From: Candidatus Obscuribacteraceae bacterium
GTDB taxonomy: Bacteria; Cyanobacteriota; Vampirovibrionia; Obscuribacterales; Obscuribacteraceae
Assembly: GCA_044226015.1 (NCBI GenBank)
Contig: JBGAHS010000004.1
Location: 544,001-608,000 of the forward strand
Direction: 5' to 3'
DNA length: 64,000 nt
Both the position numbers and the translations under genes were made by a program. A model generated the notes under the pieces. That model made no database searches. It saw only the letters and a program-made list of their open reading frames with translations, and was not told where the DNA came from. Of this stretch, positions 29,697 to 37,960 are shown in pieces (position 1 is the stretch's first letter; each line of letters starts with the position of its first letter).

Positions 29697-32600
29697 ATGT
29701 CTAAGACTTCCGACATTAAGAAGATCATGGTTCTTGGCGCCGGCCCAATTACTATCGGTCAGGCTTGCGAGTTCGATTACTCCGGTACTCAAGCCTGTAA
29801 GGCCTTGAAGGATTTGGGCTATGAGGTCGTGTTGATTAACTCCAACCCGGCGACAATAATGACCGACCCTCAGGTCGCTGACAGGACTTATCTAGAGCCA
29901 GTGACTGCGGAGTTTGCTCGTGAAGTTATTATCAAAGAGCGTCCAGATGCCATATTGCCCACAATGGGCGGACAGACAGCACTCAATGTAGCTGTTGAAT
30001 TGGCGGAGAAAGGCATACTCGCTGAGCACAATGTCGAATTGATTGGAGCCAAGCTCGAAGCCATCAAGGTTGCCGAAGACAGAGATCTCTTTAAGCAATT
30101 GATGATAAGTATCGGGTTGAAAGTGCCAAAATCAGGAATTGCAAGAAAGCTTACTGATGTGCGTGAAATTGCTGAGGAAATCGGCTTTCCAATTATTATT
30201 CGTCCGGCGTTCACATTGGGTGGCACCGGTGGTGGTATCGCATATAACCAGGAAGAGTTGGAACCACTGGCCATGGAAGGTCTCAATGCTAGCCCTGTTC
30301 ACGAAATTCTGCTCGAGCAAAGCGTGCTTGGTTGGAAGGAAATCGAACTTGAAGTAATGCGAGACTGCAAAGACAATGTGGTCATCATTTGCTCTATCGA
30401 GAATTTTGACCCGATGGGTATTCACACTGGCGACTCCATTACGGTTGCTCCACTGCAAACTTTAACTGACCGCGAGTATCAGGCATTGCGTGATGCAGCC
30501 ATCAAGGTAATTAGAGCTGTGGGCGTAGATACCGGCGGCTCAAACATTCAGTTTGCCATCAGTCCTTATGATGGAGAAATTAGTGTAATTGAAATGAATC
30601 CGCGCGTATCGCGTTCATCAGCTCTAGCCAGCAAAGCAACGGGCTATCCGATTGCTAAAATCGCCGCAAAGCTCGCTGTTGGATTGACTCTCGATGAAAT
30701 TCCAAATGATATTACAAAGACCACTCCAGCATCATTTGAGCCTGTCATCGATTACGTCGTAACCAAGATTCCTCGGTTCAATTTTGAAAAATTCCGTGGT
30801 TCCGATAACACTTTGACCACACAGATGAAGTCTGTTGGGGAAGTAATGGCTATCGGTCGTTCGTTCCAAGAGTCTGTGCAGAAAGCTCTGCGCGGACTTG
30901 AATTGGGGCTCTATGGTTTTAACCCGGTAGTCTCTCGTCGCAAAGCGGACCATCAGGAATGGCGCCGCAGATTAGCGGTTCCGAGCAATCATCGCATCAC
31001 AGATATTTTTGGTGCCCTCGATGCTGGCGTATTGATTGAAGAGGTTCATGAACTCTCTCAGATTGACCCGTGGTTCCTCGATAATTTGCTTGAATTGTGG
31101 CAAGAAAGCAAAGCTCTGTCCTCTGCTGTGCACAGTTTGAAAGAACTTGATCTCCCATACTTGAAGCGTTTAAAGCGCATGGGCTTTAGCGATTTGCAAA
31201 TAAGCAAATTGATTTCACAGAGTAGTTCTGTTGTTAGCGAAGAAGATGTTTTTGAATACCGTAAGGCTCAAAATCTCTTCCCTGCATACAAGACGGTGGA
31301 TACATGCTCGGCCGAGTTCCAGGCTTACACTCCTTATATGTATTCCACTTATGAGGATGAGTCTGAGCTGCCACCACCTACAGGCAACAGGAAGATAATG
31401 ATTCTTGGCGGTGGTCCTAATCGCATTGGTCAGGGTATTGAGTTTGATTACTGTTGTGTTCAGGCAGCCATGGCAATTCGCTCGCTCTCTTGCGATGCAA
31501 TAATGGTCAATTCAAATCCTGAAACTGTATCTACCGATTACGATGTTTCAAACCGTCTCTATTTCGAACCGCTGACCCTTGAAGATGTCTCTAACATCGC
31601 AGAGTTTGAAAAGCCCGATGGAGTCATTGTGCAACTTGGTGGGCAGACCCCGCTCAAGTTAGCTCAGGGGCTCGAGGCTCGCGGCATCAAAGTTCTAGGA
31701 ACTTCGCCTGACTCAATCGACCTGGCAGAAGATCGAGCTCGCTTTGGCAAGGTGCTGGCAAAGCTTGGCTTGCGTCCACCTAAGGGAGGCACCGCAACCG
31801 AAATCAAAGAAGCAATTCAAATCGCTGATTCCATCGGCTATCCAGTTCTTGTGCGCCCAAGTTATGTTCTTGGTGGACGTGCTATGCGAATCATCTTCAA
31901 TCAAGAAGAATTGGAGCAATGGCTCGCTACAGGATTGCAGGTTCAGCCTGACCACCCTGTTTTGATTGATGAGTTTTTGGAAAACGCTGTAGAAGTGGAT
32001 GTTGATGCTGTCTGCGATGGCGAACAAACAGTCATTTGCGGCATTATGGAGCACATAGAGCAGGCCGGTATCCACTCGGGTGACAGTACCTGTGTTCTTC
32101 CGGCGCAGACGATTCCGCTGAGCATCATTGAGGAGATTCGAAATGCTACTCGTGCGCTTGCGGAGGAATTGAAAGTAATCGGGTTGATGAACATTCAGTT
32201 CGCTATAAAAGATGGATTGGTGTACATCCTCGAAGTGAACCCTCGCGCGAGCCGAACCGTTCCATTCGTATCGAAGGCGACAGGCGTACCCTGGGCTCAA
32301 GTTGCCACTAAGGTTATGCTTGGTGAAACTCTGGCTCAACAGAAAATTGGCGATCGGTTATTGCCACCGCATATTTCAGTGAAATCAGTGGTGATTCCGT
32401 TCAAAAAATTCCCGGGTTCTGAAATCTCTCTGGGACCAGAAATGCGTTCCACCGGTGAAGTTATGGGGATAGCGTCGCAATTTGGTCTTGCTTTTGCAAA
32501 GGCGCAGATTGCAGCTGGTCATGATTTGCCTACTAAGGGACGCGTTTTTCTTAGCGTTTCTGACGCTTACAAACGCGAAGTGGTGCCTGTGGCTCAGAGC

Positions 32601-32966
32601 CTCTATCAACTAGGGTTTGAAATTGTGGCCACTCGCGGAACTGCTTCGATTGTTCATGCTGCTGGAATTCCAGCGACCGTAGTAAACAAAGTTTCTGAAG
32701 GTCGTCCGAATCTGGTGGATAGAATCAAGAATAATCAGATCAATCTTGTAATAAACATTCCATCGGGGCGTTCGGCGCATCGTGATGATCAACTGATTCG
32801 CCGTGCTGCGATTAACTACAACGTACCAGTCGTAACCACTTTGTCTGGTGCTAAAGCAACTGCTGCTGCTATAGCTGCGCTCCAACAGGGAAATCTTGGA
32901 GTGCAGAGCCTGCAGGAATATCATCAGAAGATTGCGTATTGGGAAAGCACAAGCAAAGTTCGCTAG
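29697..32966 (+). CDS. carB: Carbamoyl-phosphate synthase large subunit
   Basis: [58 protein letters not shown]-like C-terminus. Confidence 0.98.
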
Positions 32967-33056: not shown

Positions 33057-33566
33057 TTATTCGCCTGGACGCAATCTCCAGGGTAATGTTTCAAGCAATT
33101 TATCACGATGCTGTTCGTCAAGTTCGTCGAACAGTTTTCCGAATCGAGAGTATGTCGTCATCGTGTCACCGCCCATTCTTTCCTGAGCAGCCACGTCATT
33201 GCTGTCTTCAATTTTTTGCCACATATCATCGGCTTTCTTAGCGAAATCGCCCAATTTTTCTTGTAGCTTATCTTGATTTACAGCGCCGCAACGTTTCTCG
33301 TCTGAGAACCATTGCTCGACTTTTATGAAGTCTTCGCTAGCCATTCCGTTCTTGTATTCTTCTTTTGGCTTGTACACATCATTGTCATTGCTTTTGAACT
33401 TGAGTGGAAAAGAAAATGCTTCATCTAAAAAACGTGAGCTTGCTTCTGTTGAAGCAGCTTCCGGCGTGTTTGCAGCAGCTTCTTTGGGTGCAAATTGATG
33501 CTCTGCGAATGCTCTCTCTGTCATAAGTTTCTCTCCAGCCCTTTCATGCAAACCGGTTGTTTGCAT
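33057..33566 (-). CDS. Hypothetical protein
   Basis: About 170 aa, charged and helical, low-complexity N-terminus; no family recognised. Confidence 0.6.
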   Translation of the reverse strand: MQTTGLHERAGEKLMTERAFAEHQFAPKEAAANTPEAASTEASSRFLDEAFSFPLKFKSNDNDVYKPKEEYKNGMASEDFIKVEQWFSDEKRCGAVNQDKLQEKLGDFAKKADDMWQKIEDSNDVAAQERMGGDTMTTYSRFGKLFDELDEQHRDKLLETLPWRLRPGE

Positions 33567-33712
33567 GTTTTTGTTTTGCAATCGATTCCTTAAAGGAATC
33601 AGCCAATCACCTGATGCTAATATCCTAGTTATGAAACGCTGGCTTCGAAATGTTGCCAGCCACAGTGATTTCAGATAAGGCTCTGCATAATTCTTCAGTG
33701 GTTAAAAAATGA

Positions 33713-34618: not shown

Positions 34619-36772
34619 TCATGAGCTGGTGCTGAAATCTTCAACCAGAATAGGTGTATCAGCTGCCTCTGTTCTGCGGAGTGCAGGCAGCAGTCCGTTC
34701 AATGCCGCCAGGATCACTGACCCATTGTTCAAAATGGTGGCATTTACTGGACCCACTATATTCGTGAGCGAGAGTATCAAGCCTAACCAATTTGGAATGC
34801 TCACTGCAAACATGTTCTGGCGCAAAAAAGACATGGACTTGCGCGAAAGCTCGATGGAAGCAGGCAAATGTTTGATATTGTCGTCGGAAAAAATAATGTC
34901 CGCTCTGTATTTTGCAATGTCAGTGCTGCTATTGAGAGCGATTGATAGGTCGGCCTGAGCCATAGCCAGTGCATCACTGACTTCATCTCCCACAACCGCG
35001 ACGCGCAGTCCGTTTACTTGTAAGCTGCGAACGAGATCTGCCTTTGCTTCAGGGGAAAGACCAGTGTAAAACTTGTCGGTTTCTATGGAATTTGAAAGCC
35101 GACGTACCTGATTACCTGAGTCGCCTGAAATGAGGATTGTTTCTTTGATACCTAACTGTTTAAGCTCTCTGAGAACGGCGGCGCCTTCTTCCTTTATCTG
35201 ATCGCGATAAGCGATCAATCCAACTAATTCTTTTTCGATAGCTATATAGGCTACCGAGTCTCCCCTGTCTTTTATTTCAGTTGCGGACTGCTCAGATGAC
35301 TCGATATCAATTTCCTGGTCTAGCATAAAGCGTTTGCTACCAACCAGAACGTTTCTTCCATCTACAAGTGCTTTGACTCCTAAGCCCGGATGAAATTCGG
35401 AATTGCGTCGTTCAGAAATCTGCAGTTGTCTCTTCTGTGCATACCGATAGATTGCTCGAGCTGCCGGATGATGGTAGCGGTATTCGACTGCTGCTGCTGC
35501 GCTGAGAATTTCGTCGGCGCTTGCATCTGTGAGTGGAAGAACCGAAGTAATCTCGGAGTCACCAACATTTATGACTCCAGATCTGGCAAAAATGACTATG
35601 TCCATTTCCGAAAGCTTTTCCAGTGCTGAGCCCGCCTTTATAAGAACGCCATTCCTGCCCGCGTTATACATATAGGAGAGAATGGATGTCGGCAGGGCGA
35701 TACGCACGCCTGTTACGAAATCAAAGCAGATGATGGTGAAGGCTTGCACCACATTTCTAGAAAGCAAGAACGAAAACGCTGACACCAACATAATGGGGTT
35801 GACTATTTTGTAGGCTTTCTTTAATGCATGTCGTTGATAGCTTGTACGATAGAGGGCTCGTATTCTTTCTCTTTCGAGGGCTCGGCTAAGCTGGCTCTTG
35901 GGCTTTGCAGAAATGCAGGTGAGGTAAAGTTTGCCGTCGATAATAATGGCACCTGCCGAAATTTCGTCGCCGGGACCGACCTGAATGGGAAGCTTGTTGA
36001 GAGATGATTTTGCTTTGACGATGGTGGCAGTGCCTTCTTCAATTCTGCAGCGCACTGGAATACGTTCACCGGTGTAGACAACGATGGAATCACCAATATT
36101 TAGTTTGGAAATAGAAACCCTTTCTCTGCGTTCGTTTTGCACCAGCCAGGCAGAGCCCTGTGATAATTTGAGCAGTTCATCCTGCATGCTTTCGCTTTTT
36201 TGAGCCGCAAAGTCTCTGATGTATTCACCTATTCCAATGAGGAAAACCATTACGCTGGCGGGCATATAGGCTGACTCAACTGTGAGCACTATCAGCGATG
36301 CCGCATCCATGAACTCGACTGCGGGTCTACCTTCTTCCAAGAATACGCGGAGCCCGCGCCCAAATATTGGCGCTGTTGCCAGAGCTAAAACTGTGCGCGT
36401 CAGGGCTGGAGGAAAGCCAAAAACTGCTGATGCCAGCGATAATGCTCCCAGTCCAAGTTGCACTATGGGTGGTGCCTCTAACTTTTCCACCCAGTTATTG
36501 AATCTGTTTTTTGCGGGCAGTTTTTTTGGTTGAATTGTCGCCTGAATAATTTCAGATTCGCTAATTCTTGCCAGTGTCTCTTCAGGAAAAAACAGCGATG
36601 AGTCGAATTCCAGCGTCAGAGACGCGCACGCAGGGTTGACGCCGACAGCTCTAACTCCAGCCAGAGTGAGGAAGAAGCTAACGACCTTCTCCTGGAAAAC
36701 CAAATCATGCTTCAATCGATACATTCGGACTCTTATTCGTCCGGGGATGCGATGAAGTATTTTGTGCTGCAT
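34619..36772 (-). CDS. P1B-type (FezB/P1B-6-like) ATPase homologue with degenerate catalytic motifs
   Basis: N-terminal HRIPGRIRVR (HMA2-like), GERIP, GVLIK.GSALE, HP motif and PEAK; but FARSG for FDKTG, no TGE, and GDEVSD for GDGxND. Confidence 0.85.
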   Translation of the reverse strand: MQHKILHRIPGRIRVRMYRLKHDLVFQEKVVSFFLTLAGVRAVGVNPACASLTLEFDSSLFFPEETLARISESEIIQATIQPKKLPAKNRFNNWVEKLEAPPIVQLGLGALSLASAVFGFPPALTRTVLALATAPIFGRGLRVFLEEGRPAVEFMDAASLIVLTVESAYMPASVMVFLIGIGEYIRDFAAQKSESMQDELLKLSQGSAWLVQNERRERVSISKLNIGDSIVVYTGERIPVRCRIEEGTATIVKAKSSLNKLPIQVGPGDEISAGAIIIDGKLYLTCISAKPKSQLSRALERERIRALYRTSYQRHALKKAYKIVNPIMLVSAFSFLLSRNVVQAFTIICFDFVTGVRIALPTSILSYMYNAGRNGVLIKAGSALEKLSEMDIVIFARSGVINVGDSEITSVLPLTDASADEILSAAAAVEYRYHHPAARAIYRYAQKRQLQISERRNSEFHPGLGVKALVDGRNVLVGSKRFMLDQEIDIESSEQSATEIKDRGDSVAYIAIEKELVGLIAYRDQIKEEGAAVLRELKQLGIKETILISGDSGNQVRRLSNSIETDKFYTGLSPEAKADLVRSLQVNGLRVAVVGDEVSDALAMAQADLSIALNSSTDIAKYRADIIFSDDNIKHLPASIELSRKSMSFLRQNMFAVSIPNWLGLILSLTNIVGPVNATILNNGSVILAALNGLLPALRRTEAADTPILVEDFSTSS

Positions 36773-36773
36773 T

Positions 36774-37076
36774 CTATTCTGCTGCTTGCTGCTTCTTGGA
36801 TTTCTTTTCAGGAGCTTCTTGTTTGTGACTTTCTTTCAAGTGCTCTTCCATTTCTTCGCGGCGCTCGGCTTGCACTTCTGCGATTAAATCGCTGCCCTGT
36901 TCTTTGACTTCCGCGACAAACTCTCTTGCAGAATCTGAAACGCTGAGACCGGCTTTGATAACACCTTTTGCAGCTTTTCTCACGACTTTGCGGCTAGGAC
37001 CAGAAAGCAGAACAATGGCTCCGAGACCGAATAAACCCCATCTGCTACCGATTACTTCCAGTATTTCTTCCAACAT
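36774..37076 (-). CDS. Small membrane protein, DUF5132-like, partner of the P1B ATPase
   Basis: Gly-rich TM (WGLFGLGAIVLL), then RKAAKGVIKAGL..VAEVKEQGSDLIAEVQAE; stop lies 1 nt before the ATPase ATG. Confidence 0.7.
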   Translation of the reverse strand: MLEEILEVIGSRWGLFGLGAIVLLSGPSRKVVRKAAKGVIKAGLSVSDSAREFVAEVKEQGSDLIAEVQAERREEMEEHLKESHKQEAPEKKSKKQQAAE

Positions 37077-37282
37077 TTCTTGATCCTCTCCAGCTGTTGA
37101 GGCAATTATACCGGACTAAGACTCAGCCAAGTCTGCATGTGTAGTAGCGTTGCGATGCGTTTCTTGACGACAACATAGGCTATAATGGCGCTCTCTTGTC
37201 GAACCCCCAGGTGAACTTGGGTTAATTCTTCGCACGAGATACTTACTGAGAATTCCGAAACTTATTGCAAACAGGAGAGTTT

Positions 37283-37960
37283 ATGAGTTTAGAGATTGCC
37301 AAATACATCGACCACACTCTTCTTAGCCCTGCTGCGACAACCAAGGATATTGAGAAGCTCTGCGGAGAAGCGAAAGATCATGGGTTCTTCGCCGTTTGTG
37401 TGAATCCGTATTTTGTTCGCCATGCTGTGAAATTGCTATCGTCCAGCAAAGTTGCCGTAGCAACGGTAGTGGGTTTCCCTCTGGGACAAAATTTGACAGA
37501 CATTAAGATTGCCGAAACTCAACGTGCGCTGTCAGAAGGTGCAGAAGAAATCGATATGGTGATCAACATTAGCGCCCTGAAAGACGGTAGTGTTGACTAT
37601 GTTCGCGAAGAAATCAGATCTATCGTAAAGGTTGCTCGCGACCATATCGTCAAGGTAATCATTGAATGCGACCTTCTCAGCGACGAGGAAAAAGTTGCAG
37701 CAACCAGAGCTGCCGCTGATGCTGGAGCAGGATTTGTCAAAACTTCGACAGGTTTTGTCAATGGCGGAAAAGGCGCTACGGTTGAGGATGTGCAGCTCAT
37801 GCGTAAGACTCTCGGCAGCGACAAAGTCGCCATCAAGGCAAGCGCTGGTATTAGAGATTATACAAAGGCGAAAGCCTTGATTGACGCTGGAGCTACTCGT
37901 TTAGGAACCTCCGCCGGAGTAGCAATTATTCAAGGAAGCACCGCAAACGCTGCCTATTAA
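37283..37960 (+). CDS. deoC: Deoxyribose-phosphate aldolase
   Basis: YIDHTLL, TVVGFPLG, EIDMVIN, VKVIIE, FVKTSTGF, IKASAGIR, GATRLGTS. Confidence 0.96.
   Translation: MSLEIAKYIDHTLLSPAATTKDIEKLCGEAKDHGFFAVCVNPYFVRHAVKLLSSSKVAVATVVGFPLGQNLTDIKIAETQRALSEGAEEIDMVINISALKDGSVDYVREEIRSIVKVARDHIVKVIIECDLLSDEEKVAATRAAADAGAGFVKTSTGFVNGGKGATVEDVQLMRKTLGSDKVAIKASAGIRDYTKAKALIDAGATRLGTSAGVAIIQGSTANAAY

What the first reader, a model, noticed from the sequence alone, without database searches (positions are those of the whole stretch)
34619..37076. Ferrosome-like gene pair with a catalytically dead P1B ATPase
Seen: an uninterrupted 717-codon ORF with P1B ATPase architecture. The invariant phosphorylation motif DKTGT reads ARSGV (codons GCC-AGA-TCT at 35587-35579). 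The actuator TGES motif is absent (IVKAKSSLNKLP), GERIPVDG reads GERIPVRC, and GDGxND reads GDEVSD. The N-terminal HRIPGRIRVR domain, the HP motif, and the TM motifs DFVTGVR and NNGS are kept. A small Gly-rich DUF5132-like membrane gene ends 1 nt upstream. Known: P-type ATPases need that Asp to cycle, and P1B-6 ATPases with an R-rich N-terminal motif plus small GxxxG membrane partners (FezB and partners) build ferrosome iron-storage organelles. Inference: several independent catalytic motifs lost in an intact ORF points to a retained pseudo-enzyme. It could be a scaffold for organelle membrane formation, a passive metal channel, a sensor, or a regulatory partner of an active paralogue.
Basis: partly seen in the sequence, partly recalled or inferred. 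Interest (0 to 1): 0.8.

Follow-up and report, generated by a model that had tools for sequence, protein, structure and literature searches.

The report
Conserved dead twin of ion pump
A bacterial ion-pump gene was duplicated long ago, and one copy lost the residues needed to run the pumping cycle but has been kept intact by selection in many species, so it likely serves as a non-pumping partner of its working twin rather than as a ferrosome gene.

Summary
The 717-aa P1B-type ORF has Ala at the phosphorylated Asp, no TGE and GDEVSD for GDGxND, and lies 1 nt after a DUF5132 gene. It is not decay. The dead state is one old clade, found in 19 of 107 genomes of the order (Obscuribacterales by a relative's label), under purifying selection (strain pN/pS 0.14). 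It is sister to an intact DF[S/C/T/A]TG/NNG pump, found in 18 of those 19 genomes; this genome's pump sits in a DUF5132–HMA_2–pump operon. It is not FezB: it lacks D[Y/F]SCA and HNxxT and falls outside that clade. The membrane ion site, the R-rich HMA_2 (CoBaHMA) domain and, in this genus, the ATP-pocket residues are kept, and new invariant residues were gained. The subfamily made dead copies again in Desulfobacca and cyanobacteria, there beside intact pumps. Best reading (0.5, binding untested): a non-cycling regulatory or scaffolding subunit of a PacL/FezA-like membrane platform with its active twin. The closest printed precedent is the degenerate N-half of CtpH/CtpI. The scan earlier noted dead P-type ATPases of other subfamilies on other DNA (e1-932210, e1-7783399).

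The parts
34619..36772 (-). Pseudo-P1B ATPase, 717 aa, DxxTG/NNG subfamily, predicted full P1B fold
   Evidence: AlphaFold2 pLDDT 76.7, pTM 0.65; Foldseek top hits P1B pumps
36530..36760 (-). N-terminal R-rich HMA_2 (CoBaHMA-type) domain, residues 5-81; H7, G11, R12, R14 kept in dead and active copies
   Evidence: Pfam PF19991 E 2.6e-5, below cut-off; HMA_2 = CoBaHMA per bioRxiv 2024.07.07.602159
35996..36004 (-). Site of the actuator TGE motif (257-259), replaced by SLN
   Evidence: T/G/E invariant in active, lost in dead
35843..35875 (-). New basic A-M3 linker (ERERIRALYRT); R305 and R309 conserved in dead copies where active ones have A and E
35708..35722 (-). TM4 DFVTG, putative ion site; D351 kept in 29 of 29 dead and 28 of 28 active
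35573..35587 (-). Phosphorylation site DKTGT replaced by ARSGV (396-400)
35465..35485 (-). N-domain nucleotide-pocket motif E430...H435-P436, kept in this genus' clade (E 18/18, H 18/18, P 17/18), eroded in the second dead subclade
   Evidence: role of these residues from established P1B knowledge (recalled)
34973..34990 (-). GDGxND replaced by GDEVSD; G597 is D/E in 18 of 18 clade A and D in 10 of 11 clade B (1 gap)
34718..34729 (-). TM6 NNGS, kept; differs from FezB HNxxT
36774..37076 (-). DUF5132 membrane protein, 100 aa: hydrophobic N-terminus with GxxxG (10-14) and GxxG (14-17), then an AE-repeat helix (A55-E56, E59, D63, A66-E67, A70-E71); PacL/FezA-like
   Evidence: directly upstream in 7 of 7 same-genus dead loci
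37084..37110 (-). TATAAT box (37110-37105) and GGAGAGGA ribosome-binding-like site (37091-37084) of the two-gene unit
   Evidence: sequence; a TATAAT hexamer lies upstream in 7 of 7 same-genus loci; no full -35/-10 match by the scanner

Best explanation
This is a conserved pseudo-ATPase, born by an old duplication of an R-rich DxxTG/NNG P1B pump, that has lost the residues for phosphorylation and dephosphorylation and likely acts as a non-cycling regulatory or scaffolding subunit in the same membrane platform as its active twin. Shown here: loss of the catalytic motifs, one origin, purifying selection, co-occurrence with an intact paralogue, and retention of the HMA_2 domain, the TM4/TM6 site and (in this genus) the nucleotide pocket. 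Inferred from PacL-Ctp biology: the basic HMA_2 domain docks on the acidic AE helix of DUF5132 proteins, which self-associate through their membrane helices and so gather the dead and active pumps and the HMA_2 membrane protein in one patch. Inferred from anatomy: without D396 the protein rests in an E1-like state that can bind the ion and possibly ATP/ADP but not turn over, so it would set the assembly, stability or activity of the patch according to ion or nucleotide level. The Asp/Thr/Asn-only site points to a hard divalent ion (Ca, Mn or Fe(II)) rather than Cu or Zn; this is inference.
For: One clade, SH support 1.0 with catalytic columns masked, sister to the order's active copies (1.0). 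Dead copy in 19 of 107 genomes; an active paralogue in 18 of those 19; dead in 18 of 35 genomes with an active copy versus 1 of 72 without one found. Selection: 14 synonymous vs 6 non-synonymous strain differences, pN/pS 0.14, p 3e-5; pN 0.13-0.35 against saturated pS 0.71-0.82 in 21 of 21 pairs. 26 positions are conserved in dead copies but differ in active ones. This genome holds only three HMA_2 proteins (active pump, its operon partner, dead pump) and two DUF5132 genes. In 11 of 11 clade-B genomes the active pump has a DUF5132 neighbour that could act in trans. Independent dead copies sit in clusters with DUF5132/HMA_2 genes and an intact pump: Desulfobacca-type loci 2 of 2; cyanobacterial degenerate copies directly after an intact pump in 6 of 8 loci. 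Five P1B+P2 fusion proteins all show an eroded P1B half. PacL AE repeats bind the pumps' N-terminal domains across operons and co-cluster different pumps (PMC13043812, passages).
Against: No interaction was tested. In this order the dead gene was never within the fetched flanks of an active pump (0 of 16), and no shared operator was found. 17 of 36 genomes with the subfamily have only active copies, so the dead one is dispensable. Only 7 of 19 dead loci have their own DUF5132 (two clade-B loci had short flanks, three were read to 1.5 kb only). G389 (66% complete) has a dead copy and no active one found. Co-occurrence partly reflects shared descent, and the genomes are kin. Only 15 of 29 active-conserved M3-M4 positions and 15 of 23 M5-M6 positions are kept, so the membrane part is not uniformly spared. 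The E1-like model has no control.
Confidence: 0.5

Rival explanations
1. Stand-alone passive carrier or ion buffer: the membrane domain flips or leaks without ATP and moves the ion downhill, opposite to the pump.
For: TM4 D/T/G/P, TM5 N661 and TM6 NNG kept in nearly all dead copies; own promoter-like box and separate locus; 12 of 19 dead loci lack a DUF5132 neighbour.
Against: The whole A, N and P headpiece is retained at full length with many conserved residues (22 of 26 N-domain positions in clade A), which a simple channel would not need; almost never found without the active pump.
Confidence: 0.15
2. Scaffold for an intracellular mineral-storage compartment (ferrosome-like or amorphous-CaCO3-like), built with DUF5132 and HMA_2 proteins: the first reader's idea with a different pump subfamily.
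For: The active operon has the fezABC-type make-up; DUF5132 and HMA_2 genes flank and are co-expressed with calcyanin in Microcystis (bioRxiv 2024.07.07.602159); cyanobacterial loci of the subfamily neighbour Ca exchangers, MntP, Nramp or FeoAB.
Against: FezB motifs absent and no FezB-type pump among this genome's hits; no iron or calcium genes next to the dead loci whose neighbours were read (output partly cut); no further HMA_2 protein in the genome. Overlaps with the best explanation if the platform is an organelle.
Confidence: 0.15
3. Ion/nucleotide sensor that signals to an unrelated partner through the new basic linker, independent of the active pump.
For: Dead-specific invariant residues (R305, R309, R623, D597) and retained binding sites.
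Against: No conserved signalling gene near the dead loci read; tight co-occurrence with the active pump.
Confidence: 0.12
4. Rewired enzyme: the acidic residue gained at 597, next to D596 and D600, replaces D396 as nucleophile or supports ATP hydrolysis without a phosphoenzyme.
For: G597 is D/E in all dead copies with a residue there; K577, D596, D600 kept in 18 of 18 clade A.
Against: TGE is lost with no conserved replacement; TGD, K577, D596 and HP are eroded in clade B, which shares the same origin.
Confidence: 0.06
5. Decaying pseudogene or assembly artefact.
For: Evolves about 1.6 times faster than the active twin (root-to-tip 1.34/1.31 vs 0.85).
Against: Open frame in 18 of 19 genomes at full length (the other is cut by a contig end), pN/pS 0.14, same codons in independent contigs.
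Confidence: 0.02

Closest known systems
FezB / P1B-6 ATPases and fezABC ferrosome clusters (bioRxiv 10.1101/2020.01.10.902569; part 1 of 5 and passages read)
   Same: R-rich N-terminal domain, small GxxxG membrane partner; the active paralogue's operon also has an HMA-domain membrane protein like FezC.
   Different: TM motifs DFxTG/NNG instead of D[Y/F]SCA/HNxxT; separate branch; FezB keeps its catalytic motifs; no organelle evidence.
PacL-Ctp effluxosomes of mycobacteria (PMC9374683, PMC13043812, PMC13460109; passages read)
   Same: Small single-helix protein with GxxG and AE repeats encoded just upstream of a P1B-6-like pump; several such pairs per genome.
   Different: Partner is DUF5132, not DUF1490 (13 of 32 relatives weakly match DUF6110, 2 of 32 DUF1490); pump has no Cys site; no dead member mentioned in the passages read.
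CtpH / CtpI (FUPA24) double-length P-type ATPases (PMC13460109, PMC3573892, PMC10654040; passages read)
   Same: A degenerate P-type module kept beside an active one; uncharacterised.
   Different: There it is fused to a P2 pump; here it is a free full-length gene and the inferred partner is a P1B twin. CtpH/I sequences were not compared here.
CoBaHMA (Pfam HMA_2) and DUF5132 proteins near calcyanin in cyanobacteria (bioRxiv 10.1101/2024.07.07.602159, PMC8890360; passages read)
   Same: Same two domain families, found together.
   Different: No pump or pseudo-pump in the passages read; the CoBaHMA paper itself (10.1002/prot.26668) was not held.

Membership tests
P1B-type ATPase (fold/family) | TIGR01525 above cut-off; A, N, P and membrane domains | tested here: met
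   358.6 vs 346.25 bits; model and Foldseek
Active P-type ATPase | DKTG phosphorylation Asp | tested here: not met
   A396; 0 of 29 dead-clade sequences have D
Active P-type ATPase | Actuator TGE | tested here: not met
Active P-type ATPase | TGD and GDGxND | tested here: not met
   SGD and GDEVSD; K577, D596, D600 kept
Active P-type ATPase | ATP hydrolysis and phosphoenzyme | not testable with these tools
   needs biochemistry
FezB / P1B-6 | TM4 D[Y/F]SCA | tested here: not met
   DFVTG
FezB / P1B-6 | TM6 HNxxT | tested here: not met
   NNGSV
FezB / P1B-6 | Placement in the DYSCA/HN clade | tested here: not met
   Nested among DxxTG/NNG pumps; DYSCA/HN clades outside (same interim topology). 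Clades identified by motif; no named FezB sequence in the tree
FezB / P1B-6 | N-terminal R-rich motif (not specific) | tested here: met
   GRIRVR; PF19991
fez cluster | GxxxG small membrane protein next to the pump | tested here: met
   G10xxxG14 in the window's DUF5132; adjacent in 7 of 19 dead loci only
FezH | Second R-rich P1B with distinct TM sites inside a fez cluster | not testable with these tools
   Motif not given in the text read; bioRxiv supplements closed; no fezB in this genome's hits
fez cluster | Forms iron-phosphate granules | not testable with these tools
   needs microscopy
PacL (DUF1490) | Pfam DUF1490 | tested here: not met
   DUF5132 32 of 32; DUF1490 2 of 32 at E 0.036
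PacL (DUF1490) | One membrane helix with GxxG plus AE repeats | tested here: met
   G14xxG17 in 7 of 7 dead-pump partners; AE residues invariant
PacL (DUF1490) | Binds the pump's N-terminal domain and clusters | not testable with these tools

The most novel reading that the evidence does not exclude
Pseudo-P-type ATPases are a real, repeatedly evolved class of subunit: R-rich P1B pumps work as mixed membrane platforms or heteromers in which a dead twin reads ion and nucleotide levels and gates its active twin, possibly while organising an undescribed Ca/Mn/Fe storage compartment in non-photosynthetic cyanobacteria; the CtpH/CtpI fusions would be the covalent form of the same arrangement.
Probability: 0.25. 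Interest if true: 0.85.

Novelty: new variant of a known kind. Interest (0 to 1): 0.62.

Why it matters
P-type ATPases are defined by their phosphorylated Asp, and the reviews read here describe no free-standing dead member. This is a full-length one, kept across an order of bacteria beside a matched active twin with the same ion site, and it arose several times in one subfamily. It gives a clean two-operon system for asking what a pump does when it cannot pump, how ferrosome- and effluxosome-type platforms are assembled and tuned, and what the degenerate halves of CtpH/CtpI-like proteins are for. It also flags an unstudied DxxTG/NNG pump subfamily, and warns that these dead genes are annotated as working metal exporters.

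Tried and rejected
Ferrosome/FezB membership: rejected on motifs and tree. Recent decay or assembly error: rejected. Pairwise dN/dS between species: dS saturated in 17 of 21 pairs; the 4 measurable gave 0.14-0.19. Shared operator upstream of dead and active units: none found among 7 + 20 + 8 regions. Promoter scanner: no full match upstream. Expression: no RNA holder listed. A control structure of the active twin was not accepted, so the better fit of the model to E1-state entries (TM 0.56-0.59) than to E2P/E2.Pi entries (0.42-0.49) is not used as evidence of state. treekit did not finish; IQ-TREE timed out before support values. The word-indexed homologue search found orthologues but missed most of the subfamily. 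Phylum search with P0210 scored only 3 candidates per genome and returned 14 intact pumps, no P0210 orthologue. ESM Atlas: generic P1B clusters only. Fusion proteins of 1600-1700 aa were checked as possible dead+active P1B tandems: they are P1B+P2 fusions (3 of 5 scanned). A crude glycine-zipper scan gave no calcyanin-sized hit (weak test). Papers not held: 10.1007/s00775-014-1129-2, 10.1038/s41586-022-04741-x, 10.1002/prot.26668; PMC11672702 gave no passages in the held part.

Full report
Observation. The minus strand carries a 100-aa gene (36774-37076) and, 1 nt later, a 717-aa ORF (34619-36772). The long ORF passes the heavy-metal P-type ATPase model TIGR01525, has a weak N-terminal HMA_2 match, and is predicted to fold as a complete P1B pump (pLDDT 76.7). 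Against the genome's own paralogue, DKTGT is ARSGV, TGE is SLN, TGD is SGD and GDGIND is GDEVSD. Of four runs laid, two hold the stretch in one contig (either may be the source), a third holds a strain about 1% different with the motif codons unchanged, and the fourth covers little. The small protein is DUF5132.

An active twin. The genome encodes a 750-aa paralogue at C1:635805-637943 (38% identity) with all catalytic motifs and a TM4/TM6 signature of the same type (DFSTG, NNGS). It follows a second DUF5132 gene and a 225-aa HMA_2 protein. These three proteins are the only HMA_2 matches in the genome, and only two DUF5132-like genes were found. A same-genus orthologue is labelled Candidatus Obscuribacterales by NCBI; some family members carry conflicting cyanobacterial labels.

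Distribution. Among 107 genomes of the order, 36 hold the subfamily at E<=1e-120. Reading the motifs, 19 have a dead copy and 35 an active one; 18 of the 19 have both. The exception, G389, is 66% complete and no active copy was found in it. Seventeen have active copies only. With catalytic columns masked, all dead copies of the order form one clade (SH 1.0), sister to the order's active copies (1.0), in trees of 77 and 217 sequences (fragments under 520 aa and near-duplicates left out of the second). An IQ-TREE run on 45 sequences gave the same interim topology but timed out before support values. The dead clade splits into A (this genus plus G389's copy) and B (other genera). In this genus the DUF5132 gene lies directly upstream in 7 of 7, with a TATAAT hexamer before it and deoC divergent. 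The other 12 dead loci show no DUF5132 neighbour, though several flanks were short.

Selection. Between seven same-genus genomes pN is 0.13-0.35 while pS is 0.71-0.82; the four unsaturated pairs give dN/dS 0.14-0.19. The strain contigs give 14 synonymous and 6 non-synonymous differences, pN/pS 0.14, p 3e-5. The dead copies evolve about 1.6 times faster than the active ones. This is relaxed but clearly purifying selection.

What was lost, kept and gained (18 clade A, 11 clade B, 28 active sequences). Lost: D396, K397 (mostly R), TGE, G597, N599. Kept: H7/G11/R12/R14 of the HMA_2 domain; TM4 D351 (all 57), T354, G355, P361; TM5 N661; TM6 NNG. Clade A keeps 22 of 26 active-conserved N-domain positions, including E430, H435, P436 and the glycines that form the nucleotide pocket in P1B pumps (roles recalled), and K577, D596, D600; clade B has eroded HP, TGD, K577 and D596. 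Only 8 of 18 positions around the phosphorylation site and 19 of 41 in the actuator region survive in clade A. Gained: 26 positions conserved in dead copies but different in active ones, notably an acidic residue at 597 and arginines at 305, 309 and 623. Neither half-reaction of the P-type cycle can therefore run by the known chemistry, while ion-binding and docking surfaces persist.

Not FezB. The ferrosome preprint (part 1 of 5 and passages) defines FezB/P1B-6 by D[Y/F]SCA and HNxxT and says the R-rich motif is shared with related pumps. The DYSCA/HN sequences branch outside the DxxTG/NNG group. FezH could not be tested, since its motif is in supplements that are closed. The partner resembles PacL and FezA in build: hydrophobic N-terminus with GxxG in 7 of 7 dead-pump partners and invariant AE residues, with weak DUF6110 matches in 13 of 32 relatives. 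In mycobacteria, PacL AE repeats bind the pumps' N-terminal domains across operons and gather different pumps in shared clusters (PMC13043812 and PMC9374683, passages). HMA_2 is the CoBaHMA domain, and DUF5132 and HMA_2 genes flank calcyanin in Microcystis (bioRxiv 2024.07.07.602159, passages). Cyanobacterial loci of this subfamily neighbour Ca exchangers, MntP, Nramp or FeoAB (picked by eye from 9 loci), so the ion is open.

Repeated origin. Of 149 representatives examined, 8 lack the Asp: 4 of this order's clade and 4 elsewhere (P0175 Desulfobacca, P0237 Nitrospira, P0159, P0210) on at least two other branches. Both Desulfobacca-type loci place the dead gene after two DUF5132 and two HMA_2 genes and before an HMA_2-bearing P2 pump with DKTGT. 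In oxygenic cyanobacteria, 8 of 30 loci read hold a degenerating copy: five with DRTGT/TED, three with the N domain deleted, two of those without the Asp; six lie directly after another pump gene. Five representatives are P1B+P2 fusions whose P1B half has an altered TGE (4) or GDG (1). A review notes that the N-terminal halves of CtpH/CtpI resemble a degenerate P-type ATPase (PMC13460109, passage).

Mechanism. The most economical reading is a non-cycling subunit of a DUF5132-organised membrane platform, docked by its basic HMA_2 domain, holding ion and perhaps nucleotide, and tuning or stabilising the active twin (0.5). Against it: the genes are unlinked in this order, share no visible operator, the dead copy is dispensable in 17 genomes, and co-occurrence is partly descent. 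Rivals: passive carrier (0.15), organelle scaffold (0.15), independent sensor (0.12), rewired catalysis through D597 (0.06), decay (0.02).

Novelty. Nine literature searches listed no paper on a free-standing dead P1B pump or on this subfamily; DUF5132 occurs in one held paper. Three relevant papers were not held and may mention such proteins. Earlier notes of this scan describe dead P-type ATPases of other subfamilies in other genomes (unchecked), and none matched this sequence. Verdict: real, conserved and apparently undescribed; a new variant within known platform biology; interest 0.62.

Noticed in passing
window 33057-33581 (-): 174-aa protein with no Pfam match ending in LPWRLRPGE; similar proteins lie near the dead pump in G006 (L052), G007 (L056) and G005 (L054). 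Possibly a lineage-specific syntenic gene.
   Followed up: partly
P0181, P0189, P0196, P0219, P0228: 1608-1706-aa fusions of an R-rich P1B half (DKTGT kept, TGE or GDG altered) with a P2-type pump; possibly less-degenerate relatives of CtpH/CtpI.
   Followed up: partly
L076:2450-9618, L077:4880-12099: Desulfobacca-type cluster: PadR divergent, two DUF5132, two or three HMA_2 proteins, a dead P1B and an HMA_2-bearing P2 pump; in L077 near a methane/ammonia monooxygenase-like gene (by eye).
   Followed up: partly
L129, L130, L137, L131-L135, L079:16357-18000, L085:10062-11588: Cyanobacterial P1B copies in stages of degeneration, including in-frame loss of the whole N domain, inside multi-pump DUF5132 clusters.
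   Followed up: partly
L039, L042, L045, L047, L022: A second active subclade (DFCTG) in this order standing without DUF5132/HMA_2 neighbours in these loci.
   Followed up: no
L121 (G377), L028 (G008): Active-type pump genes split into pieces; broken genes or assembly errors.
   Followed up: no
G000 C7:662190-662678 (-): 163-aa ORF with about 18 consecutive GxxxG-spaced repeats.
   Followed up: no
window 37265-37960 (+), 29697-32966 (+): deoC divergent from the unit and a carB-like gene downstream; deoC is near the dead unit in all 7 same-genus loci.
   Followed up: partly
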